This document shows, one piece after another, positions 44,215 to 64,000 of a DNA stretch of 64,000 nucleotides. Source of the DNA: a virus. Lineage: Duplodnaviria; Caudoviricetes. Under the pieces are notes generated by a model. It saw nothing but the letters and a program-made list of their open reading frames with translations. It was not told the DNA's origin and made no database searches. The stretch is taken from IMG/VR virus record IMGVR_UViG_3300031539_000005, positions 1 to 64,000 of that record. The stretch is one strand, 5' to 3'. The position numbers and the translations under genes were made by a program. Each line of letters starts with the position of its first letter. The stretch's first letter is position 1.

Positions 44215-44223
44215 GGGACAATT

Positions 44224-44658: not shown

Positions 44659-44670
44659 AAAGGATTTCTG

Positions 44671-45402: not shown

Positions 45403-45411
45403 GAGGATAGT

Positions 45412-48009: not shown

Positions 48010-48011
48010 AG

Positions 48012-48230: not shown

Positions 48231-49263
48231 ACTAATAGATTATGTTTTTCAACATCACTTTCAGCTCACAGAAGCTTACGATGATTCTAATTCGATGAGA
48301 TATTTGAGTGATGAATTTGATATAGAAATCATTGGTCGTTTTATCCAGAACAAAATAACTGAACATAGGGTTAAAGGCCCTTCTACGGATTATAAGGTCA
48401 CTTTTTTACCAAAATCTTTTAGCATTCAAGCTGTAGTGGATTATATTTTAAAGCTTAATCCTAATGTGATCCACATGCATGGTAATCACGGGTGGCCCCA
48501 ATATCCAATTTATGCTTCTGCTTTTGTTAATAAAGGAATTAAGCTTATCTTTAGTCCAGCAGGAGCTAGTTGTGGAACTCATGAATTTTTAGAGTGCTTT
48601 GATACTGTGATTGTAAATCATGTAGAACAAATTAAACGAATGCGTTGTCCTCCGGCAAAGGTTCTCGTTAGACATAGGGGAGCAGATCCTAGCGTATTTT
48701 ATCCTGTTCCTGGAGGGAAGAAGAAATATAATTTTGTATATGTGGCTGGTTTTGTTCCGCAAAAGAGACTAGATTTCATGATTGAATGTGTAAAGAATAC
48801 TCCTTATAACATGGTTATCTTAGGAGACTTTACTAGATTAACAGAACATTATATTTTAATTCGTGATATAATTAAACTACAGCGCCTTGAAAATAAAATA
48901 TTCTTACATGACTTTATTCCTCAGACACAAATGTCTCAATTTTTAGGACAATGTAAGGTGTGGGTATGGCCTAATATTAAGCCAGAGAACCCTGAGACGA
49001 CCACCAATCGCTCCATTATCGAAGCTTTAGGTTGTGGTATGCCTTTATTGGTTGGAGAACGAGCCTTTAAGAATTCTCATTTTTTGATTACGGGCATTAA
49101 CGGATATAGTTATTCTACAAAGGAAGAGTTCCAAGAAAAAGCTAATTTAATAATGGAAGATTATCTTTCTTTTGGAAAAAATAGTGTAATTCTTGGCAGA
49201 GTTAAATTCTCATTTCAGGAAAATTTTATTGATTTCTATAAAAATTGCTATAATTCTTCATGA
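48211..49263 (+). CDS. GT-B glycosyltransferase (GT4-like)
   Basis: GADPSVF; YVAGFVPQKR; RSIIEALGCGMP; start at ATG 48211 after GAGG. Confidence 0.85.
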   Translation: MRKKVVKLIDYVFQHHFQLTEAYDDSNSMRYLSDEFDIEIIGRFIQNKITEHRVKGPSTDYKVTFLPKSFSIQAVVDYILKLNPNVIHMHGNHGWPQYPIYASAFVNKGIKLIFSPAGASCGTHEFLECFDTVIVNHVEQIKRMRCPPAKVLVRHRGADPSVFYPVPGGKKKYNFVYVAGFVPQKRLDFMIECVKNTPYNMVILGDFTRLTEHYILIRDIIKLQRLENKIFLHDFIPQTQMSQFLGQCKVWVWPNIKPENPETTTNRSIIEALGCGMPLLVGERAFKNSHFLITGINGYSYSTKEEFQEKANLIMEDYLSFGKNSVILGRVKFSFQENFIDFYKNCYNSS

Positions 49264-49475
49264 CCAGAGCGAATCCTATAAAGCTTAATCGCCCTATTAA
49301 CATGGTTGAATTAGATGTACATAGGCATCCGGACTGTTCTGATTATGAAAAATGTTTAGATAAAGCGGTCTATAAGAGATGGAGAGGATTTAGTTGTTTA
49401 AAATGTACTTTTTTCCGAAAATATAAGAAGATAAGAAAGAGGTTAGATCAGCTTTATGGAAAGGGAGGAATATAA
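49260..49475 (+). CDS. Small Cys-rich hypothetical protein
   Basis: DC..YEKCLD.A....W.GFSC..C; overlaps both neighbours. Confidence 0.6.
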   Translation: MTRANPIKLNRPINMVELDVHRHPDCSDYEKCLDKAVYKRWRGFSCLKCTFFRKYKKIRKRLDQLYGKGGI

Positions 49476-50256
49476 AGAGTATTGGGAAAAGAGATCAAAC
49501 ACTTATAAGTCTTTAGATGATGTGAGTAGTAAGCGGACGGCTTATAAGATTGTGAATTTAGCTAAATCTCTTGGATTGCCTTTTGCTCCTTCCATACTGG
49601 ATGTCGGTTGTGGCCCAGGAATAATTACTCGAGTCTTGCGAGAGAACTTTAGACATTCTACAGTTTGGGGGATTGATTTTTCAGAAAAAATGATTCAAAA
49701 AGCTCAGCAAAATTGTCTTCCTGATTTAAAATTTACTTGCGAAGACTTCTTGAGTTCTTCTTTTATTCCAGATCAAAAATTTGATTTTATTTTAATGAGC
49801 CTTGTTTTGCATCATTTACTTGATGGGAAAGATTTTGTTGCTCTTCTTAAGGCAAATTCTTTATTGGCAAAGAATGGATCCATTATTGTTGCAGAGGCAG
49901 TTCCTCCGGAAGATGAAATTTTTGAGGAATATAGGAATGTTTTTTTACTCAAAGAAAGAAGGAACTGCTATCTTGTTAATCATCTTGTGGCAATGCTTCG
50001 GTCTGCTGAATTTGTGAGAGTGAGATCTACTACTTATAGATTCTGGATAAGGATGTTCAAATGGCTGAATGACGATACATTGTCTAAAGAGAAGAAACGA
50101 CTAATTTGGAGTTTACATCTCAATGGCTCTGCTAGATGGAAATTGGCCTACCAAATGACATCAGTAAAGAGTAATGTGCGGGGTTTTGAATTTGACGACT
50201 ATGAGCTTAAGTGCAAAATGGCACTTATTACAGGCAGGAAGATAGTGGAAAAATAG
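49456..50256 (+). CDS. Class I SAM-dependent methyltransferase
   Basis: ILDVGCGPG; GIDFSEKMI; FDFILMSLVLHHL. Confidence 0.88.
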   Translation: MEREEYKEYWEKRSNTYKSLDDVSSKRTAYKIVNLAKSLGLPFAPSILDVGCGPGIITRVLRENFRHSTVWGIDFSEKMIQKAQQNCLPDLKFTCEDFLSSSFIPDQKFDFILMSLVLHHLLDGKDFVALLKANSLLAKNGSIIVAEAVPPEDEIFEEYRNVFLLKERRNCYLVNHLVAMLRSAEFVRVRSTTYRFWIRMFKWLNDDTLSKEKKRLIWSLHLNGSARWKLAYQMTSVKSNVRGFEFDDYELKCKMALITGRKIVEK

Positions 50257-53389: not shown

Positions 53390-54668
53390 ACATTTTGAAG
53401 CTGACCTTTTGGCTCTTTTTCTCAAAGATAAGAATAAATATATTAAGTTTTCAAAGAATCTTGAGCCAAAACATTTTAGAAATAAAATTTTCAAATGGGC
53501 TTTTGAAGTTCTTATTGAATTTTTTAATAAATACAAAGACTTACCTACTTTAGAAGTTTTTAAATCTGAGTTGATGAAAACATCACTGGAAACAGGTGAC
53601 AAGAAATTATATTATGCTGGAATTAAGAAATTATTAAAACGTACTTCTAAGATTAATCCCAAATATCTGGAAGAAAATGTTAGAGAAAAAATAGATGAAG
53701 AAGAATTTTTAAAGGCAGTGGATCAGGCCCTTAGAGATACTGAATCGGAGGGAATAAGTAAAGCGAAGCGAGATCTACTTAAGAAACTTATTTTGGGAGA
53801 AAAAACTGAATCCTTTGAACTTGTCTATATTCTTAAAGATTGGAAATTACGCCAGATTCTCAGAGAAAAGCTTTCAAAACTTGCTATTAAGAAGCGTTTT
53901 GTTTCTACTCCCTATAGTGCAATCAATAAAGCTACAAGTGGAATTCAAATATCGGAAGCTGCTACTATTGCAGGATTGACTTCCATGGGTAAATCTATTA
54001 TTGCAGGTGAATTTGGAGTTAATAGTCTCTTAGATGGCCTTAATGTTTTACATTTTTCTCTAGAAAATACAGCCGAACAGACTGCTCAGAGATATGATAC
54101 TCGGCTTACAGAAATTGAATATGATACTTTAAAATTTTACAAATTTGATCCTAGCCAATTAGCTCATTTTAAAAAAGTATTTGAAGCCTTGGGTAAAGGA
54201 TTATCAAATGATATAGTGGTAAAAGAAACGGTAAGGAATGAGGCAGATTTTGCATTTATTGATAAGACTATTGAAACACTCAAGCTAGATGGATTCGAAA
54301 CTAATCTTCTCGTAATAGATTCTTGTGATATAATGCGGTCTATGCATTCCTATAGGGATTATAGGTTAGAAAGAGCTTCTGTCTATTGGGATCTAAAAGA
54401 CTATTGTAAGATCAAGCGCATTCCAGGTCTCACTACTACTCAACTTAAGGTTACTTCTAAATGGAAACTTTCAACATCTGAAGATCTTGCAGAAGCATAC
54501 GATAAAGCTAGAATTTTAGATATTGTTTATATTATGAGTCAAACAGAAGAAGATTATAAACGAAATATTATTCGTTTTTCTATTGATAAAAATAGAGATG
54601 GAGAAGGAGGAGCAGTAATTAAACTTTTTAAAGATGCTGCGAAAATGAGATTTCTGGAGGTAGTCTAA
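53379..54668 (+). CDS. DnaB-like replicative helicase
   Basis: AGLTSMGKS; HFSLE; LVID; TTTQ; DLAEAYDK; DKNRDG. Confidence 0.88.
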   Translation: MALEHFEADLLALFLKDKNKYIKFSKNLEPKHFRNKIFKWAFEVLIEFFNKYKDLPTLEVFKSELMKTSLETGDKKLYYAGIKKLLKRTSKINPKYLEENVREKIDEEEFLKAVDQALRDTESEGISKAKRDLLKKLILGEKTESFELVYILKDWKLRQILREKLSKLAIKKRFVSTPYSAINKATSGIQISEAATIAGLTSMGKSIIAGEFGVNSLLDGLNVLHFSLENTAEQTAQRYDTRLTEIEYDTLKFYKFDPSQLAHFKKVFEALGKGLSNDIVVKETVRNEADFAFIDKTIETLKLDGFETNLLVIDSCDIMRSMHSYRDYRLERASVYWDLKDYCKIKRIPGLTTTQLKVTSKWKLSTSEDLAEAYDKARILDIVYIMSQTEEDYKRNIIRFSIDKNRDGEGGAVIKLFKDAAKMRFLEVV

Positions 54669-55006
54669 TGTCTAAAAAGAATAAAAGAGAAAAGAGTAAA
54701 CATTCTGTTCCAAAAAAAACAAAAAGTTTTCTTATAGATCCTCGTTTGGATAACTATATTCGGAACTTGATGAATTTAGTAGCGTGGCCTTTGGAACAAA
54801 GGATAAATATTTTGTTGTCCGAGATTGATACTGTTAGGTCTAATGTGATGATCGCCAACACAATGCTGGAAAGAAAGGGCATAATTGATAGAGCTGAGTT
54901 TTTTGCAGAATTTCAGGAATATGAACTTAAAGAACGAGGTATTGTGGATGCTACTGGAAACATGACAGGAACTCCCATTTTTAGTCTTTATAATTTTGGA
55001 GAATAG
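54668..55006 (+). CDS. Hypothetical protein (paralog of 37869..38210)
   Basis: Shared C-terminal motif with 37869; precedes GT9. Confidence 0.7.
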   Translation: MSKKNKREKSKHSVPKKTKSFLIDPRLDNYIRNLMNLVAWPLEQRINILLSEIDTVRSNVMIANTMLERKGIIDRAEFFAEFQEYELKERGIVDATGNMTGTPIFSLYNFGE

Positions 55007-55009
55007 AAA

Positions 55010-56221
55010 ATGAGAATAGTTAAAACTCTTATAGAAATGAAGATTTATGACGATTTAATTCTGAGAAGAGACGAAGAATATGTTATGGCGGGAGCAGTTC
55101 TGAAGCAGTTGTCAAAGATTTATCCAGGAGGAATTATAGAAACTGGGAACTTTGATGACCACTATAGACCTATAAATGTCAAAACTCTTGAAAAGAATAA
55201 ACGCTTATTTATTTTTAGGAGCGGAGGAATTGGAGATGTTATGTTCATGTTGCCTCTTATTCGTTTTTTAAAAAAGCAATTTGGAACACGAATTAAGGCG
55301 GGAACTTCTCCTCAGTATAGAGATGTTTTGCAAAACAATCCCTATATTGATGAAATTATCAGTGTTCCTTTTCTGTTAAGGGAAATGGATACTGATTATC
55401 ATTTAATGTTTGAAGGAATTATTGAAGATCCTAGTGAAAAACCTAAGAAATATCATGCAGTGGATTTATTTTTAGAAGAAGCTGGAGTTAATCCAGAGGA
55501 TATTCCTTGGGATGAAAAAATTCCACCTCTTTTTTTGAGTCAAGAAGAAAAAACGTGGAGTAAAAATAGGCTTTCTAAACTTGATATTCCTTTGGGAGCT
55601 AAAATTGGGATTCAAGTACAAGCAAGTTCACCAGTTCGAACTTTCCCTTTGGATAAAACAGTTGGAATTATTAAATTGTTGATTAATCAGGGAAACAATA
55701 TTTTTCTTTTTGGCGGACCAAGGCAAGCTGAATTTACAAATTATTTAACAAGTCTCCTGGGAGAAGCTAGGAGACTCATTAATTTAGTTCATAAGGATAT
55801 TACTCTCCGTCAATCAATAATTTGGGCGAGCATGATGGATTTGATTATTGCTCCAGATTCAGCTTTTATTCATATAGCTGGAAGTTTGGGCGTTCCACTA
55901 ATTGGACTCTATGGGTGTTTTCCTTCTCTATTGCGTATGAAATATTATAGGAATGCAATTGGCATTGATTGTAATGTAGCTTGTGCTCCTTCTTTTATTC
56001 ATGGACATCTGCCTTGCTATAAAGGAGATCCATCTCCTTGCTTTTCTGTAGTGAAAGTCCAGAATGTTCTTGATGCTGTTGAACATATTCTTGGGATTAA
56101 GAAAATTCCCAATGAGTATCCTGCTTATAATGAATTTAGAGATAGCGTTTTATCTCATTCTCCTTTTATTCAAATTTCTGAAGCGCTTAAGGAAACAGCG
56201 GGTCTTAAGGATGGGAATTAA
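55010..56221 (+). CDS. Glycosyltransferase family 9 (paralog of 38207)
   Basis: RSGGIGDVMF; YHLMFEGIIE; IAPDSAFIHIAGSLGVPLIGLYG; PSPCFS. Confidence 0.85.
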   Translation: MRIVKTLIEMKIYDDLILRRDEEYVMAGAVLKQLSKIYPGGIIETGNFDDHYRPINVKTLEKNKRLFIFRSGGIGDVMFMLPLIRFLKKQFGTRIKAGTSPQYRDVLQNNPYIDEIISVPFLLREMDTDYHLMFEGIIEDPSEKPKKYHAVDLFLEEAGVNPEDIPWDEKIPPLFLSQEEKTWSKNRLSKLDIPLGAKIGIQVQASSPVRTFPLDKTVGIIKLLINQGNNIFLFGGPRQAEFTNYLTSLLGEARRLINLVHKDITLRQSIIWASMMDLIIAPDSAFIHIAGSLGVPLIGLYGCFPSLLRMKYYRNAIGIDCNVACAPSFIHGHLPCYKGDPSPCFSVVKVQNVLDAVEHILGIKKIPNEYPAYNEFRDSVLSHSPFIQISEALKETAGLKDGN

Positions 56222-56600
56222 TCCAAAAGCATCAGTACCGATAGCGCGAGTAACAATTGATAAAGATGTCATTATGGAAATCTTTGAACGCTTTTGCACT
56301 TATGATTTCCACCAGAAAATTCTAATAAATAATTTACGATGGGTAAAGGAAGAGGGATGTTTTGTAGCAGAAATATATGGAAAAGGAGAACGTAGCGGTG
56401 GAGAGAAGACTCTTGTTCCTACTTTTCATTACGGGGGGAGAGATAATCTTCCCACCATTGAACTTCAAAACCGAGATCTTCTGCCTCCTTCGGATGCTTT
56501 TAAACGTAGTAGAAAACTCATAAAAGAAGTTGAAAAAATTCATAAAAGAGTAAAGAGAACAGCAAAGGAATTTTGGTCTCCTAAAAAGAGAGAAATTTAA
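56211..56600 (+). CDS. Hypothetical protein
   Basis: ATG 56211 after AAGG; abuts the primase start. Confidence 0.55.
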   Translation: MGINPKASVPIARVTIDKDVIMEIFERFCTYDFHQKILINNLRWVKEEGCFVAEIYGKGERSGGEKTLVPTFHYGGRDNLPTIELQNRDLLPPSDAFKRSRKLIKEVEKIHKRVKRTAKEFWSPKKREI

Positions 56601-57598
56601 TGTTCAGCATTACTTCTTTACTAGATAAAAAGAAAATAGAATATAAAAGAATAGGAGAAGAACTCTTTTTTGATTGTCCTATTTGTGGCCGAGAAAAACA
56701 TTTCTATTATAATGTGAAAAAGGATTTATGCCTTTGTCAGCGTTGTAAGTGGGAAGGGAATCGTGTTGGTTTTCTAATTAGTGGACTTGGCTATTCTAGA
56801 AAAGAGGCTATGGCCCTTATTAAATCTGAAGAAAGTTTGAATTTCGCAGATTTACATTCTCGAATTACCTCGATGTTAACCTCGAAAACGAAAGTGGATT
56901 TCTTTATTGAACCAATTTATTTCAAAATTCCTTTGCCTGATCGTATATTATCGGTTACGAAAAAAAATTTTCCAAAAGCAGTGGCTGAACGTGGAATCAA
57001 TTGGAAGCTTGCGAACGCTTTACATTTATATACTTCTGTTGCGAGTCATGGGAGATTTTTTAATAGAATAATTGTTCCTGTTGAGACTCTCAAAAGTAAA
57101 TGTTTTGTAGGGATAACCGCATTCACTAGAGAAAAAGCTAAAAAAGTAAAGGAAGCTCAAAGAAAAAGAGGCCTTGAATTTAGGAAGTCTTTGTTTCCAA
57201 AAGGCTCAATTATGTCTGAAATGCTTTACCTTTATAATAGGGTGGCCCACCGTAAAAATAGATTGTTTGTCGTAGAAGGAGTCTGGGATGTCTGTAGCTT
57301 ACTTCGCTTGAGAGAATTTGCAACTTGCACTTTTGGAGATAAGGTCAGTAAGTCACAGGCTTTATTACTTGCGAATACTGAGGCAGAGAGCATTTATTTA
57401 ATGCTTGATGGGGATGTGCCTTTAAAGAGACTAAGAAAGTATTATGAATTATTAAGGCTTATTTGTTTTGATAAAAAAGTATACATGTGTAGACTTCCAG
57501 AAGAAAAAGATCCAGATGATTTGGCAGAGGATGAGTTAAGAGAAGTAATTAACGCAGCAGAGAAAAGAGGTTATTCATTATGGACGGTAGGGAAATAA
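56600..57598 (+). CDS. DNA primase (zinc finger + TOPRIM)
   Basis: CPIC...CQRC; RIIVP; VVEGVWD; MLDGD; KDPDD. Confidence 0.88.
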   Translation: MFSITSLLDKKKIEYKRIGEELFFDCPICGREKHFYYNVKKDLCLCQRCKWEGNRVGFLISGLGYSRKEAMALIKSEESLNFADLHSRITSMLTSKTKVDFFIEPIYFKIPLPDRILSVTKKNFPKAVAERGINWKLANALHLYTSVASHGRFFNRIIVPVETLKSKCFVGITAFTREKAKKVKEAQRKRGLEFRKSLFPKGSIMSEMLYLYNRVAHRKNRLFVVEGVWDVCSLLRLREFATCTFGDKVSKSQALLLANTEAESIYLMLDGDVPLKRLRKYYELLRLICFDKKVYMCRLPEEKDPDDLAEDELREVINAAEKRGYSLWTVGK

Positions 57599-58488
57599 AG
57601 AAGCAATTTAGTAGAATATTACGCTATCCTAAACTGGAAACGGATAGGCATGAAGAAGTTAAGGTTACTGGGAATAATCTTTTATATTCTCTGACAAAAC
57701 ATGATGAAAATATAAATGAATCTGGAATAGAGAATCTTGGAACGGATTGGATGCTGTTAAATATGGGTCAAGGGAATTTTAAGTTTTCAAGAAGATGGGC
57801 ATGGATTTTTAGGCATTACATTTGGGCTTCTAGAGTTCCTTCTTTCGAACAGAGAAGGGCAAGGCTTGTTGATATCGGGTGTGATGTCGGCGAAATACGA
57901 AAGCTAATAAGTAAATCCTTTTATACGAAAAATCCTCTCTATGTAGGTATTGATCTTGATCATAGGAGATTGGAACAAGGTGCTGAAAGAATACAAATGA
58001 AGATTCCCGCAGTTTATATTCAGGAAGATGTTACTCTTGGACTTCATTTCATTCAATCACATTCTATTGATCTTATTTTTTGCGGAGAGATAATAGAACA
58101 TTTTTCAAAGAAGTTTGGGATTCGGATGCTTAAGGAAATGTATAGGATATTGAAGCCAGGAGCATCTTTTTTGTTATCTACTCCTAATAGAGATAATACA
58201 AAGGGATTCAAATTTCATGTTTATGAATATTCAATTCCCGAACTAAAACAATTGATTTCAAAATGTGGATTTGAAATAACAAATGTTTGGGGGTGGACTA
58301 CTACAGAAAGACGTATTTTACAAGGTACATCTAGGGCAGTTTCTAAAATATACAGTCTATTAAAAGAAAGTGTGCATAAGGATATAGTGGTCCCGCTCAT
58401 GGCATTTATTGATCCATCTATTTCGGAAGCATTTTGTATTGAAGCTAAGAAGCCGGAGTTGCCAAATAAAAAAAGTGTGGATGGATGA
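57580..58488 (+). CDS. Class I SAM-dependent methyltransferase
   Basis: LVDIGCDVG; GIDLD; EIIEHF; RILKPG..LLSTPN; FHVYEY. Confidence 0.85.
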   Translation: MDGREIKKQFSRILRYPKLETDRHEEVKVTGNNLLYSLTKHDENINESGIENLGTDWMLLNMGQGNFKFSRRWAWIFRHYIWASRVPSFEQRRARLVDIGCDVGEIRKLISKSFYTKNPLYVGIDLDHRRLEQGAERIQMKIPAVYIQEDVTLGLHFIQSHSIDLIFCGEIIEHFSKKFGIRMLKEMYRILKPGASFLLSTPNRDNTKGFKFHVYEYSIPELKQLISKCGFEITNVWGWTTTERRILQGTSRAVSKIYSLLKESVHKDIVVPLMAFIDPSISEAFCIEAKKPELPNKKSVDG

Positions 58489-58638
58489 ACTTCTTTTTAA
58501 AGAAGGTCGTATATACAATTAATGGTCAATGGTGAATAAAAAAATTAAAGAAGAGGAGGGCAATGTGCAGTATAGGTGAGGGATAGTGAAGTTTAAGGGA
58601 TTTTAATTCTAAATTTGAATTCAATCAGGAGGAAAGGT

Positions 58639-59592
58639 ATGGTTAAGAAGAAAGATGAAGAAGAAGATTTTGAACTTGATGAAGATCTTGAGTTAGAAGA
58701 AGGTCTTGACGAGTTGGAAGATTCAGAGGATTTTGAAGAAAGCGTCGAAGAAGGAGAAGAGGGCGCGGAAGAGGAAGGTACAGAAGAAGAAACTACGGAA
58801 GAAGAAGGTACGGAAGAAGAAGGTACCGAGGAAGAAGGTACCGAGGAAGAAGGTGAAGAAGAGGAAGGCGAAGAAGAAGCCGGAGAAGAGGAAGGCGCAG
58901 AGGAAGAAGGTGTAGAAGAAGGGGAAGAAGAACTTCCCGGAGAAGAAGCTCGTTTTCCTGGAGAAAAGATAGCTCCGCAGAAATCAAAGAGGGCAGGAGG
59001 AGGAGCAAAGGTTAGCCGTTTGATAATCGGGGAAAAGCAAACCGTTGTTCCTTTGGCTTTCAAGCCTCTCGTTAGAGGTCTTGAAAAGTTTGGAAAAGTT
59101 GTCCATAAGTCTTCAATCACCGCTGTTCTTCTGGAGTCGAAAGATGGTGCCAATTTCGTCAGTATTGTTCCTCAATTATCAACTGCCGAAACAACAAACC
59201 TCTGGCTTAATCAGTCCGTAAAGGGAGATGCCGTCTTCGCACCTTCCAAAAAGTCTTTACAGAAAATGTGTACTTTTTGGGAGAAGCCCAGACGAGCGGT
59301 AAGGGTCATTGTTACCAAGGACACTATAGAAGAAGCTCTGGCTATCGTAGCCGAATATGCGACATGGTTTAAAGCCAACGCAATGAGTACTGCTAAGAAA
59401 AAAGAAGAGACGAAACCTGAAACAGGAAAAAAGGGACCGGTGGTAAGTAAACCTGCACCGGCTGGAGCTGGCGGCAAAGTGATTACCAAGAAAAAAGCTC
59501 CACCTCCGCCTCCAGTGGCAGCAAAGAAGACGGTTGCATCCAAACCTGGAACCGCTGGTAAGGTGTTAGTCAAGAAGAAACTTACCAAGTAG
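58639..59592 (+). CDS. Hypothetical protein: ~95-aa Glu-rich N-terminus with EEEGT repeats, globular core, K/A/P-rich basic tail
   Basis: SD AGGAGG...AGGT before ATG 58639; 15-bp tandem repeats at ~58770-58860; followed by a terminator. Confidence 0.8.
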   Translation: MVKKKDEEEDFELDEDLELEEGLDELEDSEDFEESVEEGEEGAEEEGTEEETTEEEGTEEEGTEEEGTEEEGEEEEGEEEAGEEEGAEEEGVEEGEEELPGEEARFPGEKIAPQKSKRAGGGAKVSRLIIGEKQTVVPLAFKPLVRGLEKFGKVVHKSSITAVLLESKDGANFVSIVPQLSTAETTNLWLNQSVKGDAVFAPSKKSLQKMCTFWEKPRRAVRVIVTKDTIEEALAIVAEYATWFKANAMSTAKKKEETKPETGKKGPVVSKPAPAGAGGKVITKKKAPPPPPVAAKKTVASKPGTAGKVLVKKKLTK

Positions 59593-59616
59593 GTTAGGAA
59601 TTGCATTTTTGGTCGG

Positions 59617-59644
59617 AAAGGGGCAGCTTGTCTGCCCCTTTTTA
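59617..59644 (+). terminator. Rho-independent terminator
   Basis: AAAGGGGCAG / CTGCCCCTTT stem followed by TTT. Confidence 0.8.
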
Positions 59645-59658
59645 TTGGAGAGAGGCCC

Positions 59659-61002
59659 ATGAGAGAAGTTTTTCTAGATAAGGATAGCGCCAGAGATTTT
59701 CTTACGAGAAAGAAAGTTCAAGATTATAAGTTTATGGATAGATATAATCTTGAATTATTGGTTAATTCAAAACTTTCATCAGGTAAAATACACGCTAATG
59801 TTTTACCAGATCTTCTTAATCATTGTTTGGGAACCAGAGTAGCTTATGGATTCAACTATTGTCTTTCACATCCTATCACCAATAGAAATGTTACTGAAAA
59901 CCTTTTAGAAATTCCTGTTCTGAAAGAGTTTCTAGCTAGAGGATGTAAGATTTCTTTTATTGGGAAATCTAGTAAGAAGTTTGAAGGTTTTCATCCTGAT
60001 ATGAAAGACTATAGTGGAGAATGGAAAAAACTTCCTACTCCATATAAGCCTATTGCTGATTGGATAGAAGACTGTTTGGAAAACTATGAGACTCGCTATG
60101 GAATGGAATTTCCTAAAGCAGACGTGGTAGTAACGAATGCTTTTCCTTCCTTTTTCTTTTCAAACATGATGTTTTATTTGATCAATTTGCATTATGCAAA
60201 AACTCATACCCCTGTTTTCTTGTGGGATTATGAATTGAGGACTCTTAGAACAAGTGAAAAAGATAATCTTCCCAAGAAATATTTCAGATATTCTGGAGCA
60301 GATAAAATCTTTTCAGTTGATCAATTCAAAACTATTGCTGATAATGCTTATTGGCTATTACAAATTCCTGGTGAAGCTCTAGATAGAATCAAGAGTCTTA
60401 ATCCTAGAATAAGAATTTTGCCATTTTTCCCACCTTATAGCTTTCAATTTGGTCAGTATAATATATGCCCAAAGACTATATATCGTCTTGCATACATCGG
60501 TAACGATTCAGAAAGAAGACAAACTTTTAGAAAGTTCTTTACTCCATTGGAGAAGAAGAATAGATTAGATCTTTTTGGAGGAGGGATGTCTAGAAGGGCA
60601 GAAGGCTACGAAAATTTTGAAAAGTATATAGGTAATACAGAGATGCATGGCCCTATTCCGCAAGGGGATGTATGGAAGACATATAATCAAGCAAGAACTT
60701 GTTTATCTATTGCAAGGCCCAGATATTATGAAATGGGATGGATTGTTCATCGCTGGTTTGAAGTGATTCTCAGTGGTTGCATTTTGTTAGTCCCAGGAGA
60801 GATGCATGGAATCAGGCGGTATATGAGTAAATATTTTATTGTCAATGATGCGAAAGAGCTAGATGAAAAAATTCAGTTCTTTAATGATAAACTCACACAT
60901 TCAAAGCTATTGCAATTCCATCAATGGCAAAAGAGATTTATCTATCGACTCTTCAATTCAGAACGCTGTGTTGATGTTATCCTGAGGGTAATAGGAAAAT
61001 GA
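59659..61002 (+). CDS. GT-B glycosyltransferase resembling T4 DNA beta-glucosyltransferase / CgeB-type
   Basis: LAYIGN...R; LDLFG; GPIP..DV...YNQA..CLSI....Y......HRWFEVILSGCILLV....F.VNDAKELDEKI resembles the recalled BGT C-domain. Confidence 0.6.
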   Translation: MREVFLDKDSARDFLTRKKVQDYKFMDRYNLELLVNSKLSSGKIHANVLPDLLNHCLGTRVAYGFNYCLSHPITNRNVTENLLEIPVLKEFLARGCKISFIGKSSKKFEGFHPDMKDYSGEWKKLPTPYKPIADWIEDCLENYETRYGMEFPKADVVVTNAFPSFFFSNMMFYLINLHYAKTHTPVFLWDYELRTLRTSEKDNLPKKYFRYSGADKIFSVDQFKTIADNAYWLLQIPGEALDRIKSLNPRIRILPFFPPYSFQFGQYNICPKTIYRLAYIGNDSERRQTFRKFFTPLEKKNRLDLFGGGMSRRAEGYENFEKYIGNTEMHGPIPQGDVWKTYNQARTCLSIARPRYYEMGWIVHRWFEVILSGCILLVPGEMHGIRRYMSKYFIVNDAKELDEKIQFFNDKLTHSKLLQFHQWQKRFIYRLFNSERCVDVILRVIGK

Positions 61003-61625
61003 AAAAATTAGCTTATACAGAAACTAAAAACTTTCCTCCTTTTTTGGATCAAATTGTGCTTATGGATCCTAAGGATTTGGTGATTGATGCTTATGCCAGA
61101 ATTCTGTGTACTAATTGCGGATTATATAATCGCGGAATTCTTTGCCCTCCTTTGCTTCCTCTCACTTATCCACAATTTAAAACCATAGATTCTTCAAGGG
61201 AATATTTTGATTCTTTTGATGAAGCCTACCTTTATGTGTTTAAAAATGATGGAAGAAGGAGATGGTGGTATCAAAAAGAGTGGGGAGACTTTGCTCACAT
61301 TAAACTTCAGGTTAGATTAGGAAGGCAGTTGAAGGGAGTAGAGGCGAGTAGTGCTCGGAAGCTAACGCATTTAATGAAGAAAGCTGAATTAGTGAATAAA
61401 AAGAGAGGCTTTACTGTTGCCACTTTTATTCAAGGCCACTGTGACAAGTGTGGCAAATGTCCTAATAGAAGCAATCCTCCTTGCAAAAAAGGAGGCCTTC
61501 CTAGTCTTGAAGCTACAGGCATCAATGTATATTCTCTTCTTAAAAAGTTAGGTATTCCTTATGAGTATCCGGTTCGTAATTATCTTACGCAAGTAGCATT
61601 AATGGTGAAAAAAAATGATTCTTGA
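60999..61625 (+). CDS. DUF2284-like Cys-rich metal-binding protein
   Basis: R..CTNCGLYNRGILCPP; GHCDKCGKC; PSLEATGINVY. Confidence 0.75.
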   Translation: MKKLAYTETKNFPPFLDQIVLMDPKDLVIDAYARILCTNCGLYNRGILCPPLLPLTYPQFKTIDSSREYFDSFDEAYLYVFKNDGRRRWWYQKEWGDFAHIKLQVRLGRQLKGVEASSARKLTHLMKKAELVNKKRGFTVATFIQGHCDKCGKCPNRSNPPCKKGGLPSLEATGINVYSLLKKLGIPYEYPVRNYLTQVALMVKKNDS

Positions 61626-62187
61626 TTTAGTAGACCATATAGAAATTAAAGAATGGATTCCTGAATTAAAAAAGCCTCATCCATGCTATCTGTATGATTT
61701 TAAGGCAATGGGGATTACTCCGTATCAACTCGGAGAGATCTTGTGGGGAAAGGAAGCGCTTCTTTTTGAGCGTCCCTTTAGAGAAAAAATAGGAGGGGTG
61801 AAATGTCCCTGGTGTGACTACGATTCTCGAAAAATGATAAGAGGAATAAGAAGAGAATACTGGCGTGGATATAGACTCCAAGATCACATCCAACAGCATA
61901 AGAAAAACATTCTTCATTATCAGATTTTGAAATTTCAGGGAGATTTATATTCCTTAAGATTAGGATTAGTGAGGCAAGGATGGCATGAATGTATGATGTT
62001 CATGGTGCAGTATACTTGCCAACTTTGTCTTAACCCCAGAACAGAAGGTAGAATAGGAATGTGTGCTATTCCTTCTTCGACCAGGAATCGTCCTCGGTGT
62101 CTAAAAGTTCTTGGCTATCCCATTGAACATATAAAGAAAATGAGAAAACATGACTGGTCTGTCCTTGGAATAATTGTGTTGATGTAA
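61615..62187 (+). CDS. Cys-rich protein, possibly a divergent DUF2284 paralog
   Basis: KCPWC; TCQLC...C.IP...RPRCLKVLGYPI. Confidence 0.5.
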   Translation: MILDLVDHIEIKEWIPELKKPHPCYLYDFKAMGITPYQLGEILWGKEALLFERPFREKIGGVKCPWCDYDSRKMIRGIRREYWRGYRLQDHIQQHKKNILHYQILKFQGDLYSLRLGLVRQGWHECMMFMVQYTCQLCLNPRTEGRIGMCAIPSSTRNRPRCLKVLGYPIEHIKKMRKHDWSVLGIIVLM

Positions 62188-62265
62188 ACCTTGCCTACAG
62201 AATTTCGTATATGGGTTAGTAAAATGGTTTATTGTTTTTTTTTATCTCTAAAAGAGGATGACACA

Positions 62266-62508
62266 ATGAAGGATGAAAAGCTCACAGACTCTGAAATTCA
62301 TGTAAGCGACAATTACAAAGATATTCTGAAATCGGTAGGGTGTGCTTTTATCTCTGGTTCACTTCTTACCAGAGGCTACGATTATTTTTTACATCCTGGT
62401 ACAACGGTTCCGATAATGCTTTACTTTGGATCATCTTTGTTTATCTTTTTCTTAGCTATTATTTTTGGAGCAAAGCACTTATTTCCCAGTGAGGCGAATC
62501 ATGAGTAA
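62266..62508 (+). CDS. Small membrane protein (two hydrophobic segments)
   Basis: ATG 62266 after GAGG; VGCAFISGSLL and IMLYFGSSLFIFFLAIIFG. Confidence 0.55.
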   Translation: MKDEKLTDSEIHVSDNYKDILKSVGCAFISGSLLTRGYDYFLHPGTTVPIMLYFGSSLFIFFLAIIFGAKHLFPSEANHE

Positions 62509-62734
62509 CGCAAAGGATCCTATTAATAATGATCCAATGGCCTCTATTTCAGAAATAATTAGTCTGGATTATATATCAATTCGCATTAGAATTTCAGATT
62601 TTTCTCGTTTTGCCAATATGGTCATGGGATTGAAAGACGGAGGGACTTTCTTTCTTGAAAGACGGAAAGAATATCGTGTAGTTAAGGTCATCTTTGAACA
62701 CAATCTGGATGAAAGTAAAATAATCATTGCATAA
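62501..62734 (+). CDS. Hypothetical protein
   Basis: ATG 62501 after GAGG; overlaps the previous stop. Confidence 0.5.
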   Translation: MSNAKDPINNDPMASISEIISLDYISIRIRISDFSRFANMVMGLKDGGTFFLERRKEYRVVKVIFEHNLDESKIIIA

Positions 62735-62757
62735 TGCATGAATAATGGAGGTAGGTA

Positions 62758-63984
62758 ATGGATGCTGATCTTACCAACTACGGGATAATAGAAGCTGATG
62801 GCGTGAATGATTGTTATTTACAAACAGTCAAGAGTCTTGTTCAATTTGGAGACATAGTTGTTTCAAGAGGAATGGAAACGAAAGAAGTCAGACCTGTAGT
62901 TCTTATTCTTTCAGATCCTAGAAAAAGATTTTTAACTTGTCCTGGCCGATGGATTAATCCTTATTTTCAGGTAATGGAAGCTATTTGGATTCTTTCAGGT
63001 GGGTCGTCGGTAGAGTGGATTTCTTATTATCTGAAAGATATAGAAAAGTATTCAGATGGAGAAAAAGAATTTCATGCTCCGTATGGAAAGCGAATTCGTG
63101 ATTTTGGGGCTTACCGGGATGCGGTTTATACTCTTCGATCCGTAGTTGGTTATCCCCCCGATCAGTTAAAGAATTGTTTTGACTATCTTGATATTGATCC
63201 TGATACTCGCCATGCGCTTGTTACACTTTGGAACCCTGCTTTTGACAATATTGGGATGGCTACTATTGATAGACCATGTAATTTTGCTCTTCATTTTTTG
63301 ATTCGCGAATCTGCTCTTCAGCTTACTGTCTATAACAGATCAAACGATATCCACTTGGGATTGTTTAATGCGAATGTAGTACAATTCAGTGTTATACTTG
63401 AAGCGCTCACTATGTGTCTCGGAAGACCTTTAGGTAAGCAGATTCATTTAATTAATTCTCTCCATTTTTATACAGATAGCCCAATAACATCGCGAATTTT
63501 AGCCGAGGATCTTGAAAAAAGGCCCTTCAGTGTATATGATTACGTTGCTCCTAAGCCTTTTTGGCTAAATTTCAGAAGATATAAAGATCTTGGTATGAAT
63601 TATTCAAATTATCAAATTTTAGACATAGAGCTTAAGAAATTTATGGCTCTTGAACAGGCGATAAGAAATGGTGACTCAGAAGAGATTGTGGAAAACTACA
63701 CAAGGGAGACTCTGTTCTTTAATTTTCTAATTGATGCAATTTTCTTGGCTCTATCCTATAGAGCTCTTAAGAAAGGGGATTTATCCTTGGCGTTCATGTG
63801 TTTAGATAAGGTTGTGGCAGCCGATATTTTTATTTCTTGTCTTGAATATTTGGTCAGGAAAGGAACGAAGGAGAATTTAATTTCTCCTGAAGTAATTATT
63901 GCAAAAGCTATGATTCATGATCATTTTTCTTTTCTTGGTCCTGAAAAAATAGCTAAAATAGATGAATATATTTTCCATCATTAA
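62758..63984 (+). CDS. Thymidylate synthase homolog, dUMP hydroxymethylase type
   Basis: SRG.ETKE; NPYFQVMEAIWILSG; HAPYGKRI; DPDTRHA; RPCN catalytic Cys; NRSNDIHLGLFNANVVQFS; SLHFY; SD GGAGGT. Confidence 0.8.
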   Translation: MDADLTNYGIIEADGVNDCYLQTVKSLVQFGDIVVSRGMETKEVRPVVLILSDPRKRFLTCPGRWINPYFQVMEAIWILSGGSSVEWISYYLKDIEKYSDGEKEFHAPYGKRIRDFGAYRDAVYTLRSVVGYPPDQLKNCFDYLDIDPDTRHALVTLWNPAFDNIGMATIDRPCNFALHFLIRESALQLTVYNRSNDIHLGLFNANVVQFSVILEALTMCLGRPLGKQIHLINSLHFYTDSPITSRILAEDLEKRPFSVYDYVAPKPFWLNFRRYKDLGMNYSNYQILDIELKKFMALEQAIRNGDSEEIVENYTRETLFFNFLIDAIFLALSYRALKKGDLSLAFMCLDKVVAADIFISCLEYLVRKGTKENLISPEVIIAKAMIHDHFSFLGPEKIAKIDEYIFHH

Positions 63985-64000
63985 AAAGATATGTCTACCA

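What the first reader, a model, noticed from the sequence alone, without database searches (positions are those of the whole stretch)
59659..63984. Candidate glycosyl-5-hydroxymethyluracil (base-J-like) DNA hypermodification cluster
Seen: a contiguous gene run of a GT-B glycosyltransferase, two Cys-rich DUF2284-like proteins and a thymidylate-synthase homolog. Known (recalled): the motif NRSND..(W/L)G...AN..QFS with Asn at the specificity position is typical of SPO1-type dUMP hydroxymethylases, whereas T4 dCMP hydroxymethylase has Asp there. The GT's C-domain resembles T4 beta-glucosyltransferase (Y.G...R; FG; G.IP...V; RvwE.mas vs RWFEVILS; VNNRAEL vs VNDAKEL). Glucosyl-hmU is base J of kinetoplastids, while described phage hmU hypermodification usually goes through a 5-hmU DNA kinase, which is not seen in this window. 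Inference: the phage replaces T with hmU and sugars it directly, with possible further tailoring by DUF2284 proteins and the 57580 methyltransferase, an anti-restriction chemistry not well described in phages.
Basis: partly seen in the sequence, partly recalled or inferred. Interest (0 to 1): 0.8.

Follow-up and report, generated by a model that had tools for sequence, protein, structure and literature searches.

The report
Phage hydroxymethyluracil plus DNA-sugar gene cassette
An uncultured soil phage carries, inside its DNA-replication genes, an enzyme that very probably makes hydroxymethyl-uracil nucleotides next to a sugar-transferring enzyme and two cysteine-rich proteins of unknown role, which suggests a sugar-coated replacement for thymine in its DNA that nobody has yet measured.

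Summary
The gene run exists and is conserved. ORF 62758-63984 is a thymidylate-synthase-fold enzyme. It has the residue signature of a dUMP hydroxymethylase (Cys146, Leu143->Asp, Asp169 and Asn177 kept; E. coli ThyA numbering). Its best full-length matches in cultured phages are SPO1 gp29-type enzymes. ORF 59659-61002 is a GT-B glycosyltransferase. Its best solved-structure match is T4 beta-glucosyltransferase, but only narrowly ahead of other GT-B enzymes, and it fails the T4 beta-GT Pfam model. ORF 60999-61625 is a true DUF2284 protein. ORF 61615-62187 is cysteine-rich but is not DUF2284. The core DUF2284 / Cys-rich protein / hydroxymethylase / DnaE polymerase recurs in the same order in all 11 viral contigs examined. 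The slot upstream of DUF2284 varies: a GT-B homologue in 6 contigs, and a TET-associated glycosyltransferase (a known DNA-sugar transferase family) plus a radical-SAM enzyme in 2. No 5-hmU DNA kinase, amino-acid:DNA transferase or TET/JBP dioxygenase was found in the 122-kb record. The best reading is hmU made before replication, then glycosylated on the DNA. The hydroxymethylase step is well supported. The sugar-on-DNA step is inferred. The roles of the two Cys-rich proteins are unknown. This is a new variant of a known kind.

The parts
57580..58488 (+). Class I SAM-dependent methyltransferase (302 aa) of the small-molecule type. It is a frequent member of the cassette and a candidate tailoring enzyme.
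   Evidence: Pfam Methyltransf_23/11/25, E about 1e-10. NCBIfam gives only generic UbiG/UbiE/BioC-like hits, all below cut-off. A blastp homologue lies in the cassette of 7 of 11 contigs: G000, L004, L021, L025, L027, L029, L031. It sits directly next to the GT in L004 and L007.
59659..61002 (+). GT-B fold glycosyltransferase (447 aa), the candidate DNA (hmU) glycosyltransferase.
   Evidence: Pfam Glyco_trans_1_2, 37.3 bits, residues 287-410. AF2 model has pLDDT 81.2 and pTM 0.84. Foldseek PDB rank 1 is T4 beta-GT 1c3j, E 9e-10, TM 0.51/0.66. hhalign against T4 beta-GT covers 81 columns, E 0.0049. Only 16 relatives were found among 5.8 billion proteins. There is no tblastn match in 50,697 GenBank phage records.
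60999..61625 (+). DUF2284 protein (208 aa), a probable Fe-S or metal-binding protein of unknown role. Its start overlaps the GT stop by 4 bases.
   Evidence: Pfam PF10050, 65.5 bits. Conserved C37-x2-C40-x8-C49-P-P and H147-C148-x2-C151-x2-C154...C162. 98 phage-type relatives. Model pLDDT 71.7. No significant PDB fold match; the best is 8dor_A at E 0.07, and most of the listed weak hits are nitroreductase-type.
61615..62187 (+). Cys-rich 190-aa protein, not DUF2284. It has two CxxC motifs, function unknown. It overlaps the DUF2284 gene by 11 bases.
   Evidence: No Pfam, PHROG or NCBIfam family. hhalign against DUF2284 gives E 0.2. Invariant C24, C64PWC67, C135xxC138 and C150 in 11 of 11 sequences. 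The Atlas search gives zinc-finger-like leads only, all below 0.9 for named families.
62191..62734 (+). Two small overlapping ORFs (105 aa, with a hydrophobic stretch; and 89 aa). It is uncertain whether they are genes.
   Evidence: No family found. Only the 89-aa ORF has a weak match in L021, E 2e-5 over 38 residues.
62758..63984 (+). Thymidylate-synthase-fold enzyme with the dUMP 5-hydroxymethylase signature (408 aa), including a C-terminal helical extension like that of SPO1 gp29.
   Evidence: Pfam PF00303, 70.7 bits. phrog_5131 E 2.7e-71 over residues 10-371. tblastn to SPO1 gp29: 33% identity over 85% of the query, E 3e-52. Diagnostic residues C146, D143, D169 and N177. It is the only TS-fold gene in the record.
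55010..56221 (+). GT9 (heptosyltransferase-like) glycosyltransferase (403 aa), lying between the replicative helicase and the primase. It is a possible second sugar transferase of the same pathway.
   Evidence: Pfam Glyco_transf_9 E 7.5e-14. NCBIfam heptosyltransferase II 3.9e-13, below cut-off. Conserved at the same place in L004, L021 and L015 at 49-61% identity. Not seen in the 8 distant loci.

Best explanation
This is a thymidine-replacement and hypermodification cassette built into the replication module of an uncultured soil phage. Step 1 is well supported by sequence. The 408-aa thymidylate-synthase homologue turns dUMP into 5-hydroxymethyl-dUMP with methylene-tetrahydrofolate, as SPO1 gp29 does. 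Step 2 is inferred. Host kinases make hm-dUTP, since no phage kinase was found, and the phage's own DnaE polymerase (starting at 63991) puts hmU into DNA in place of T. A YfbR-like HD 5'-deoxynucleotidase at genome 69199-69795 may help by draining dTMP. Step 3 is inferred from fold, position and gene swaps in relatives. The GT-B enzyme at 59659 transfers a sugar from a nucleotide-sugar onto the hydroxymethyl group of hmU in the DNA polymer. This is the T4 logic (gene 42 next to beta-gt) applied to uracil, and it would give a base-J-like O-glycosyl-hmU. The sugar is unknown. The neighbouring class I methyltransferase, the GT9 enzyme and other sugar genes of the genome may extend or methylate it. 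Step 4 is unknown. The DUF2284 Fe-S-type protein and the 190-aa Cys-rich protein always accompany the hydroxymethylase. They probably serve the hydroxymethylase or hmU step (as redox or metal cofactor partner, or as regulator) rather than the sugar step.
For: Hydroxymethylase: of 1184 phage records with a tblastn match, 31 cover at least 80% of the query. All 30 rows listed (27 of them at 85-90% coverage) are SPO1-type Bacillus or Exiguobacterium phages, including genes annotated dUMP hydroxymethylase in SPO1, SP-10 and Goe9. The best PDB sequence match is the hydroxymethylase MilA (4e-19), against 2.9e-11 for the best true thymidylate synthase. The alignment with E. coli ThyA, T4 gp42, RB69 gp48 and SPO1 gp29 shows C146 kept, L143->D, D169 kept and N177 kept. 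It also shows PC-N, a one-residue loop insertion and a long C-terminal extension shared only with gp29. All 11 cassette homologues share D143/D169/N177. These positions are the ones PMC13326640 (sections 24 and 28 read) links to substrate and product. There is one TS-fold gene and no ThyX in the record. An HD 5'-deoxynucleotidase lies nearby; phage M6, which makes hmU, also has an HD hydrolase next to its TS homologue. Glycosyltransferase: GT-B fold with T4 beta-GT as top PDB match. In the viral model library, rank 4 is annotated 'DNA beta-glucosyltransferase' and rank 12 is the SP-15 glycosyl transferase. It sits between primase/methyltransferase and hydroxymethylase/polymerase, and its stop overlaps the DUF2284 start. 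Homologues hold the same slot in 6 of 11 contigs. In L025 and L028 the slot holds TAGT, PF20691 (67.9 and 58.8 bits, cut-off 27.5). That is the family of the T2/T6 DNA glucosyltransferase, which in T-even phages sits where T4 has beta-gt (passages of PMC13216743 and PMC13390438). In T4 itself beta-gt is the immediate neighbour of gene 42. Contigs from RNA libraries of two studies cover parts of the hydroxymethylase gene. This is a weak hint of expression, since DNA carry-over is not excluded.
Against: No chemistry was measured: the phage is uncultured and the data are short-read contigs. The GT's lead over unrelated GT-B enzymes in Foldseek is small (9e-10 against 2-4e-9). The Pfam T4 beta-GT model finds nothing even at E 1, phmmer with T4 beta-GT finds nothing, and hhalign probability is 7%. 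The genome holds many other sugar genes that suit a protein or envelope glycan: four GT2, one GT1/4, a cytidylyltransferase-like gene and three methyltransferases at 43276-50256, a GT1-like domain in the 1305-aa ORF, and a PfkB kinase and an epimerase. So a GT in this phage need not act on DNA. Two of 11 contigs (L026, L029) showed no recognised GT in the slot, although not all their ORFs were scanned. No dNMP kinase, dUTPase or dCMP deaminase was found, so complete replacement of T is less assured than in SPO1. The record is estimated 89% complete. The ML tree does not join the cassette enzymes to the SPO1 clade with support, because the deep forks are open.
Confidence: 0.45

Rival explanations
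1. The DNA carries hmU only, as in SPO1. The hydroxymethylase replaces T with plain hmU. The GT-B enzyme, the GT9 enzyme and the methyltransferase belong to the phage's large glycan toolkit and decorate virion proteins or a host envelope polymer, not DNA.
For: The genome has at least eight further GT genes or domains, plus nucleotide-sugar genes, none tied to DNA. One GT-bearing ORF and a radical-SAM gene lie beside a tail-adaptor-like gene. The GT fails the T4 beta-GT Pfam model. The GT slot is variable, and in 2 of 11 contigs no GT was recognised there.
Against: The GT is translationally coupled to DUF2284 inside the replication module. The alternative occupant of the slot in L025 and L028 is TAGT, a family known for DNA-linked sugars. 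The top structural match is a DNA glucosyltransferase.
Confidence: 0.25
2. hmU is the precursor of a different, non-sugar or mixed hypermodification. Its core chemistry is done by the always-present DUF2284 Fe-S protein and the Cys-rich protein, helped in some lineages by radical-SAM/SPASM enzymes and the methyltransferase. Glycosylation is an optional lineage-specific addition.
For: DUF2284, the Cys-rich protein and the hydroxymethylase co-occur in the same order in 11 of 11 contigs, while the GT varies. Radical-SAM/SPASM genes sit directly upstream of DUF2284 in L025, L028 and L029. A homologue of the window's radical-SAM gene 6475-7413 sits upstream of the GT-B in L032. Radical-SAM enzymes are known in thymidine hypermodification (PMC8989533, passages). 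NCBIfam lists a methyltransferase/DUF2284 fusion family, NF041536.
Against: No known function or solved relative for DUF2284. No fused forms were found. The contigs were found through DUF2284, so its presence is by construction, and all 11 belong to one broad phage lineage, so co-inheritance alone could explain the linkage.
Confidence: 0.18
3. The TS-fold enzyme does not make hm-dUMP. It could be a divergent true thymidylate synthase, a hydroxylase, or it could act on a ribonucleotide as MilA does. In that case the cassette has nothing to do with hmU.
For: The best PDB sequence match is MilA, a CMP hydroxymethylase. The tree leaves deep relationships open. Residue signatures are correlations from a limited set of tested enzymes (PMC13326640).
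Against: Asn at position 177 argues for uracil, not cytosine. Asp at 143 argues against a methyl product. Asp169 argues against the 5-hydroxylase type. The full-length likeness, including the C-terminal extension, is to SPO1 gp29.
Confidence: 0.08

Closest known systems
SPO1 / SP8 / SP-10 dUMP hydroxymethylase (gp29) pathway: hmU replaces T
   Same: Same enzyme type by signature residues, by C-terminal extension and by best matches. The gene lies just upstream of the DNA polymerase gene in both.
   Different: SPO1-type DNA is left as hmU, or in SP-10 is modified through a 5-hmU DNA kinase. Here a GT-B enzyme, DUF2284 and a Cys-rich protein are attached, the polymerase is DnaE-type, and identity to gp29 is only 33%.
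T4 gene 42 (dCMP hydroxymethylase) plus beta-glucosyltransferase
   Same: Same logic: a hydroxymethyl pyrimidine made before replication, then a GT-B enzyme acting on DNA. In T4 the two genes are direct neighbours. T4 beta-GT is the top structural match of the window's GT. A BGT-like GT and TAGT alternate at one slot, as in T4 against T6 (PMC13390438, passage).
   Different: The base would be uracil (Asn177), not cytosine (Asp177). The GT fails the T4 beta-GT Pfam model. No dCTPase-type exclusion genes were found.
Base J of kinetoplastids (JBP1/2 thymine dioxygenase plus JGT)
   Same: The end product would be of the same class (O-glycosyl-5-hydroxymethyluracil in DNA) if the sugar is a hexose.
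   Different: In kinetoplastids hmU is made on DNA by a TET/JBP dioxygenase, and none was found here. JGT is related to GT-A enzymes (bioRxiv 10.1101/2023.12.21.572611, passages), whereas this GT is GT-B. The sugar here is unknown.
Kinase-dependent thymidine hypermodification (5-HMUDK plus amino-acid:DNA transferase; ViI, M6, PhiW-14, SP10, PaMx11)
   Same: It starts from hmU made by a TS homologue, and radical-SAM enzymes can take part (PMC8989533, abstract and passages).
   Different: No match to M6 gp54 (kinase) or M6 gp51 (transferase) in six frames of the record. The only AAA_33 hit is a 15-bit P-loop match inside an AAA ATPase.
Metagenomic GT-B plus thymidylate-synthase pathways noted in 'Virus-encoded glycosyltransferases hypermodify DNA with diverse glycans'
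   Same: That preprint (passages read) reports that GT-B-containing viral pathways are more often near a ThyS gene (about 28%) than near a dioxygenase. It reads them as pre-replicative, and it shows heptose, Kdo and hexose additions to 5hmC by phage GT-B enzymes.
   Different: The products shown there are on cytosine. In the passages I read there is no product on hmU, and no mention of DUF2284 or of this cassette. Its supplements were not available to me.
RB69 / DLP3 5-hydroxy-dCMP synthase plus arabinosyltransferases
   Same: A TS-fold enzyme supplies the acceptor hydroxyl for DNA glycosylation (PMC13326640).
   Different: Those enzymes carry D169N and N177D. The window's enzyme keeps D169 and N177.

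Membership tests
dUMP 5-hydroxymethylase (SPO1 gp29 type, thymidylate synthase fold) | Thymidylate synthase fold with the catalytic cysteine (E. coli C146) | tested here: met
   PF00303, 70.7 bits against a cut-off of 24.3. C146 is invariant in alignment A2.
dUMP 5-hydroxymethylase (SPO1 gp29 type, thymidylate synthase fold) | Asn at the position of E. coli N177 (uracil rather than cytosine substrate) | tested here: met
   Asn in the window protein and in all 10 cassette homologues. Asp in T4 gp42 and RB69 gp48. The rule comes from PMC13326640, section 24.
dUMP 5-hydroxymethylase (SPO1 gp29 type, thymidylate synthase fold) | Acidic residue in place of L143 (product other than methyl) and Asp169 kept (not a 5-hydroxylase) | tested here: met
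   D143 and D169 in 11 of 11 cassette proteins and in SPO1 gp29. RB69 gp48 has N169.
dUMP 5-hydroxymethylase (SPO1 gp29 type, thymidylate synthase fold) | Grouping with characterised dUMP hydroxymethylases in a tree | tested here: inconclusive
   ML tree of 18 rows. The nearest outside rows by path are SP-10, EalM-132 and SPO1, but the joining forks are open.
dUMP 5-hydroxymethylase (SPO1 gp29 type, thymidylate synthase fold) | Makes hm-dUMP from dUMP and methylene-THF | not testable with these tools
   Needs an enzyme assay or LC-MS.
T4 beta-glucosyltransferase family (Pfam PF09198) | Match to the family profile | tested here: not met
   No PF09198 hit at E 0.1 in hmmscan or at E 1 in the six-frame search of the record. 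phmmer with T4 beta-GT found nothing at E 10.
T4 beta-glucosyltransferase family (Pfam PF09198) | GT-B fold closest to T4 beta-GT | tested here: inconclusive
   T4 beta-GT entries rank 1, 2, 5, 6 and 10 (E 9e-10 to 5e-9), but a pterin glucosyltransferase, glycogen synthase and BshA lie within the same range.
T4 beta-glucosyltransferase family (Pfam PF09198) | Transfers sugar to a hydroxymethyl pyrimidine in duplex DNA | not testable with these tools
   Needs an in vitro assay on hmU-DNA.
DUF2284 (Pfam PF10050) | Profile match over the whole domain with the conserved Cys motifs | tested here: met
   ORF 60999-61625: 65.5 bits, profile positions 3-158 of 161. Cys and His motifs conserved in 26 sequences.
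DUF2284 (Pfam PF10050) | The same test applied to the second Cys-rich ORF, 61615-62187 | tested here: not met
   No PF10050 hit. hhalign between the two family profiles gives E 0.2.
Kinase-dependent thymidine hypermodification (5-HMUDK + AADT) | P-loop 5-hmU DNA kinase and aGPT-Pplase-type transferase genes | tested here: not met
   phmmer with M6 gp54 and gp51 against all six-frame ORFs of the record found no hit at E 10. AAA_33 gives only 15.1 bits inside an AAA ATPase. Single-sequence sensitivity is limited and the record is 89% complete.
Base J pathway (JBP dioxygenase + JGT) | TET/JBP dioxygenase that oxidises T in DNA | tested here: not met
   PF12851 found no match at E 0.1 in the record.

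The most novel reading that the evidence does not exclude
DUF2284 and the CPWC/CxxC protein are obligatory, so far undescribed partners of a phage dUMP hydroxymethylase in a widespread lineage of soil and sediment phages. Together they would make a thymine replacement not yet known. For example, an hmU derivative whose formation needs Fe-S redox chemistry, which different lineages then cap with different sugars (GT-B or TAGT), radical-SAM tailoring and O-methylation. This would give DUF2284 its first function and would put O-glycosyl-hmU (base-J-like) DNA into bacteriophages by a pre-replicative route.
Probability: 0.2. Interest if true: 0.85.

Novelty: new variant of a known kind. Interest (0 to 1): 0.62.

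Why it matters
Glycosylated hydroxymethyl-cytosine is the textbook phage defence against restriction. The uracil counterpart (base J) is known as a DNA base only from kinetoplastids. In my searches I found predictions of sugar-modified hmU in phages, but no paper reporting such a base in phage virion DNA. This cassette gives a compact, conserved gene set of hydroxymethylase plus GT, with swappable GTs, that can be tested directly in E. coli. It also ties two orphan Cys-rich proteins, one of them from the uncharacterised DUF2284 family found in bacteria, archaea and viruses, to pyrimidine modification. New DNA glycosyltransferases and modified bases are useful for restriction and CRISPR evasion studies and as tools for mapping hmU.

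Tried and rejected
- Complex prediction of the hydroxymethylase (alignment A7) with DUF2284 (A6) gave 'no answer', with scores 0.00 and 0.00. It counts neither for nor against binding.
- The promoter and terminator scan of 54500-64000 found no more sites than the shuffles (29 against 26.3; 7 against 5.5), so no operon boundaries could be read from it.
- tblastn of the GT and of DUF2284 against GenBank phages found no match, so no cultured relative can lend chemistry.
- A profile search of the PDB with the GT alignment gave only a chance ribosomal hit.
- Foldseek of the DUF2284 model gave nothing at E 0.001 or better. Most of the listed weak hits (E from 0.07 up to about 2) are nitroreductase-type. 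This is a lead only.
- The search for longer, fused forms of DUF2284 found none, which is weak evidence.
- The Atlas search for the 190-aa protein gave zinc-finger-like clusters below the level where named families count. I first read C64xxC67...H91xxxH95 as a C2H2 finger. H91 is not conserved in the 11-sequence alignment, so I dropped that reading.
- The RNA-library contigs do not cover the GT, DUF2284 or the Cys-rich gene. Because these are contigs, this says nothing about their expression.
- The ML tree left the deep forks open. In the MAFFT alignment the T4 gp42 loop is shifted by one column (Asp appears under 176). The alignment places it under N177.
- The extra ORFs inside the cassette of L004 (255 and 217 aa) have only weak helix-turn-helix hits. 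I treat them as insertions, not as pathway members.
- The ~345-aa ORF between the Cys-rich gene and the hydroxymethylase in 6 distant contigs has no family and no homologue in this genome.
Supplementary files of the papers were not consulted; tables of GT-B/ThyS contigs in bioRxiv 10.1101/2023.12.21.572611 might already list relatives of this cassette.

Full report
WHAT IS THERE. The window is the first 64 kb of a single 122,493-base virus record, classed as linear with estimated completeness 89%. Nearly all genes are on the + strand and G+C is about 36%. The finding lies in the replication module. The order is:
- UvsW-like helicase (50402)
- DnaB-like helicase (53379)
- GT9-type glycosyltransferase (55010)
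- primase (56600)
- class I SAM methyltransferase (57580)
- a protein with an acidic and a basic low-complexity stretch (58615)
- GT-B glycosyltransferase (59659)
- DUF2284 (60999)
- a 190-aa Cys-rich protein (61615)
- two small ORFs
- a thymidylate-synthase-fold protein (62758)
- DnaE-type polymerase (63991-67305)
- two HIRAN-domain proteins
- a YfbR-like HD 5'-deoxynucleotidase (genome 69199-69795)

The GT stop overlaps the DUF2284 start by 4 bases, and DUF2284 overlaps the next gene by 11 bases.

THE THYMIDYLATE-SYNTHASE HOMOLOGUE. Pfam and PHROGs place it in the family: PF00303 at 70.7 bits, and phrog_5131 at E 2.7e-71 over residues 10-371. Of 1184 GenBank phage records with a tblastn match, 31 cover at least 80% of the protein. 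All 30 rows listed are SPO1-type Bacillus or Exiguobacterium phages, 27 of them at 85-90% coverage. They include SPO1 gp29 (33% identity, E 3e-52), which its record annotates as dUMP hydroxymethylase, and the SP-10 gene annotated the same way. The best solved relative by sequence is MilA, a CMP hydroxymethylase (4e-19). True thymidylate synthases start at 2.9e-11.

A 2026 paper (PMC13326640; I read sections 24 and 28) sets out which active-site positions go with which chemistry:
- N177 (E. coli numbering) is Asn for uracil and Asp for cytosine.
- L143 is replaced by Asp or Glu when the product is not a methyl group.
- D169 is replaced by Asn in the flavin-dependent 5-hydroxy-dCMP synthases.

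In my alignment with E. coli ThyA, T4 gp42, RB69 gp48 and SPO1 gp29, the window protein has C146, D143, D169 and N177. That is exactly the pattern of SPO1 gp29. It also shares with gp29 alone a PC-N motif, a one-residue loop insertion and a C-terminal extension of about 130 residues. The ten homologues from related cassettes have the same four residues. A maximum-likelihood tree of 18 sequences did not resolve the deep forks. The SPO1-type enzymes are the nearest outside rows by path length, but no supported branch joins them. The record has no second TS-fold gene and no ThyX. I take 'dUMP hydroxymethylase' as well supported (about 0.85) but not shown.

THE GLYCOSYLTRANSFERASE. Only its C-terminal half matches a Pfam GT model. 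It has just 16 relatives among 5.8 billion proteins, all from metagenomes at 53-60% identity, and none in GenBank phages. An AlphaFold2 model built on 15 sequences is confident (pLDDT 81.2, pTM 0.84) and is a GT-B fold. Against the PDB, the first hit is T4 beta-glucosyltransferase (1c3j, E 9e-10, TM 0.51/0.66), and further T4 beta-GT entries rank 2, 5, 6 and 10. A pterin glucosyltransferase, glycogen synthase, an alpha-1,2-glucosyltransferase and BshA follow at 2-4e-9, and T4 alpha-GT is at rank 48. Against viral models, rank 4 is annotated 'DNA beta-glucosyltransferase' and rank 12 is the phage SP-15 glycosyl transferase.

By sequence the link to T4 beta-GT is faint. The Pfam T4 beta-GT model finds nothing. 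So the enzyme works like a GT-B nucleotide-sugar transferase and may be a distant cousin of beta-GT, but it is not a member of that family by the profile test.

CONSERVATION AND THE VARIABLE SLOT. Searches with the GT alignment found one 84-kb viral contig (L004, the same contig as L013) and ten short metagenome contigs. In L004 the whole stretch from helicase to polymerase is syntenic at 30-58% identity, with two small helix-turn-helix ORFs inserted. Of the ten short contigs, eight extend beyond the GT stop. In seven of those a DUF2284 gene follows, and L012, with 362 bases beyond the stop, gave no match.

Searches with DUF2284 profiles found an 88-kb contig (L021) and eight more distant viral contigs, L025-L032. 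DUF2284 has 98 phage-type relatives in the protein collection, far more than the GT. In all 11 distinct viral contigs (this record, L004, L021, L025-L032) the order DUF2284, ~190-aa Cys-rich protein, ~400-aa TS-like protein, DnaE is kept. This holds even where the TS-like proteins are only 25-29% identical and DnaE 30-41% identical to the window's. The presence of DUF2284 itself is by construction of the search.

Upstream of DUF2284 the content varies:
- A homologue of the window's GT-B is present in 6 of 11 contigs: this record, L004, L027, L030, L031 and L032.
- L021 has an unrelated 472-aa ORF with only sub-threshold GT hits.
- L025 and L028 have a TAGT-family glycosyltransferase (PF20691, 67.9 and 58.8 bits against a cut-off of 27.5) followed by a radical-SAM/SPASM enzyme.
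- L029 has a radical-SAM/SPASM enzyme.
- L026 has a homing endonuclease and a PfkB-type kinase.

TAGT is the family of the T2/T6 enzyme that adds the second glucose to glucosyl-hmC DNA. In T-even phages it sits at the position where T4 has beta-gt (passages of PMC13216743 and PMC13390438). The same alternation of a BGT-like GT-B and TAGT at one slot next to a hydroxymethylase is my main indirect argument that this slot encodes a DNA glycosyltransferase. In T4, beta-gt and gene 42 are direct neighbours. The methyltransferase has a homologue in the cassette of 7 of 11 contigs.

THE TWO CYS-RICH PROTEINS. ORF 60999-61625 is a clear DUF2284. Its conserved residues are C37-x2-C40-x8-C49-PP and H147-C148-x2-C151-x2-C154...C162. 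I note from general knowledge that the second motif is spaced like a ferredoxin-type [4Fe-4S] site. This is inference. Its model (pLDDT 71.7) has no significant solved relative. Most of the listed weak hits are nitroreductase-type, with the best at E 0.07. The literature search for 'DUF2284' returned two papers, neither about DNA. One lists a methyltransferase/DUF2284 fusion selenoprotein family. The Atlas holds viral DUF2284 clusters.

ORF 61615-62187 is not related to DUF2284 and has no family. It has invariant C24, CPWC (64-67), CxxC (135-138) and C150. Their roles are unknown. Because they track the hydroxymethylase and not the GT, I think they serve the base-making step. A complex prediction gave no verdict (see Tried and rejected).

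WHAT IS MISSING, AND WHAT ELSE THE GENOME HAS. I found no thymidylate kinase, dUTPase or dCMP deaminase. There was no AAA_33-type kinase beyond a P-loop hit in an AAA ATPase, no match to the phage M6 5-hmU DNA kinase, amino-acid:DNA transferase or radical-SAM isomerase, no TAGT and no TET/JBP dioxygenase. So the known kinase route and the dioxygenase route are both unsupported.

On the other hand the genome is rich in sugar genes:
- Window 43276-50256 holds four GT2 genes (one of them fused to a methyltransferase domain), a cytidylyltransferase-like gene, a GT1/4 gene and two further methyltransferase genes.
- The 1305-aa ORF at 1532-5449 has an intein and a C-terminal GT1-like domain.
- Genome 87260-89275 holds a PfkB kinase and an NAD-dependent epimerase/dehydratase.
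- There are two radical-SAM genes.

This cuts both ways. It could supply unusual nucleotide-sugars and extend a DNA-linked glycan, as the heptose and Kdo additions to hmC shown in bioRxiv 10.1101/2023.12.21.572611 (passages read). Or it could show that this phage glycosylates something other than DNA.

PUBLIC READS. Six soil DNA runs hold the stretch as contigs. Five of them may be the source and so are not independent. Contigs from two metatranscriptome runs of two studies cover 57416-57878, 58531-59436 and 63015-63822 without differences. This is a weak hint that the hydroxymethylase and the acidic protein gene are transcribed, since DNA carry-over cannot be excluded. Contigs cannot show base modification.

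COMPARISON WITH WHAT IS KNOWN, AND NOVELTY. The pieces are known kinds: an SPO1-type hydroxymethylase and a phage GT-B next to it, as in T4. The 2023 preprint already notes that metagenomic GT-B pathways often lie near a thymidylate-synthase gene. A 2026 paper (PMC13229309, passages) notes phage T-dioxygenases associated with glycosyltransferases. So glycosylated hmU in phages is a published expectation. In my searches I found no report of such a base measured in phage virion DNA, and none linking DUF2284 to DNA modification. About 1.7 million PMC papers and all supplements were outside these searches.

The new points are these:
- the conserved four-gene core with two orphan Cys-rich proteins
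- the swappable GT slot (GT-B or TAGT) beside a uracil-type hydroxymethylase
- the lack of any kinase or dioxygenase

I rate it a new variant of a known kind, with interest 0.62.

VERDICT. The hydroxymethylase assignment is strong, DNA glycosylation of hmU is plausible but unproven (overall confidence 0.45 for the full pathway), and the sugar and the roles of DUF2284 and the Cys-rich protein are open.

Noticed in passing
window 43276-50256: A dense sugar island just upstream of the replication genes: GT2 (312 aa), cytidylyltransferase-like (144 aa), GT2 (243 aa), GT2 (258 aa), a GT2 plus methyltransferase fusion (434 aa), Methyltransf_24 (183 aa), GT1/4 (388 aa) and a class I methyltransferase (266 aa). 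The target is unknown: DNA glycan extension, virion proteins or envelope.
   Followed up: partly
window 1532-5449 and 6475-7413: A 1305-aa ORF carries an intein with a LAGLIDADG endonuclease and a C-terminal GT1-like domain. Two genes on lies a radical-SAM/SPASM enzyme (312 aa), next to a tail-adaptor-like gene. A homologue of this radical-SAM gene sits directly upstream of the GT-B in the cassette of L032.
   Followed up: partly
window 58615-59592: A 325-aa protein with a strongly acidic Glu-rich N-terminal part and a Lys/Pro-rich C-terminal tail. Its middle part (about residues 107-267) is conserved in 7 related contigs. It has no family. It is the part of the stretch best covered by RNA-library contigs.
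   Followed up: no
genome 63991-69795 (L001 991-6795): After the hydroxymethylase come a DnaE-type Pol III alpha (1104 aa), two HIRAN-domain proteins, a zinc-ribbon protein, an HTH protein and a YfbR-like HD 5'-deoxynucleotidase. The HD enzyme is a candidate dTMP-draining enzyme. Phage M6 also has an HD hydrolase next to its TS homologue.
   Followed up: partly
genome 91686-94874, minus strand (L002 8686-11874): A CobT-like VWA protein (694 aa) and a MoxR/CbbQ-type AAA ATPase (346 aa) lie side by side, resembling the cobaltochelatase CobS/CobT pair. Any link to the Fe-S or metal proteins of the cassette is pure speculation.
   Followed up: no
genome 87260-89275 (L002 4260-6275): A PfkB-family sugar kinase (337 aa) and an NAD-dependent epimerase/dehydratase (330 aa) are adjacent. 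Together with the cytidylyltransferase-like gene and the GT9 gene they look like an ADP-heptose-type supply line. A PfkB homologue also lies in the cassette of L026.
   Followed up: no
L025, L028, L029, L030, L031, L032 (for example L025 9976-11001): A conserved ORF of about 340-350 aa sits between the Cys-rich gene and the hydroxymethylase in 6 of the 8 distant contigs. It has no Pfam family (only the L025 copy was scanned; its one hit, DUF6046, is below cut-off) and no homologue in this genome.
   Followed up: partly
L026 10921-16570 and L029 13104-16585: In these relatives the DnaE polymerase matches in two separate ORFs (910 + 295 aa; 903 + 190 aa). This suggests a split gene or an intervening element.
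   Followed up: no
genome about 122290-122493 (contig end): The record ends in tandem copies of a 22-base unit. This was seen in the last 100 bases printed and in the self-matches about 22 and 44 bases upstream for the last 50 and 100 bases. It may be a terminal repeat or an assembly edge.
   Followed up: no
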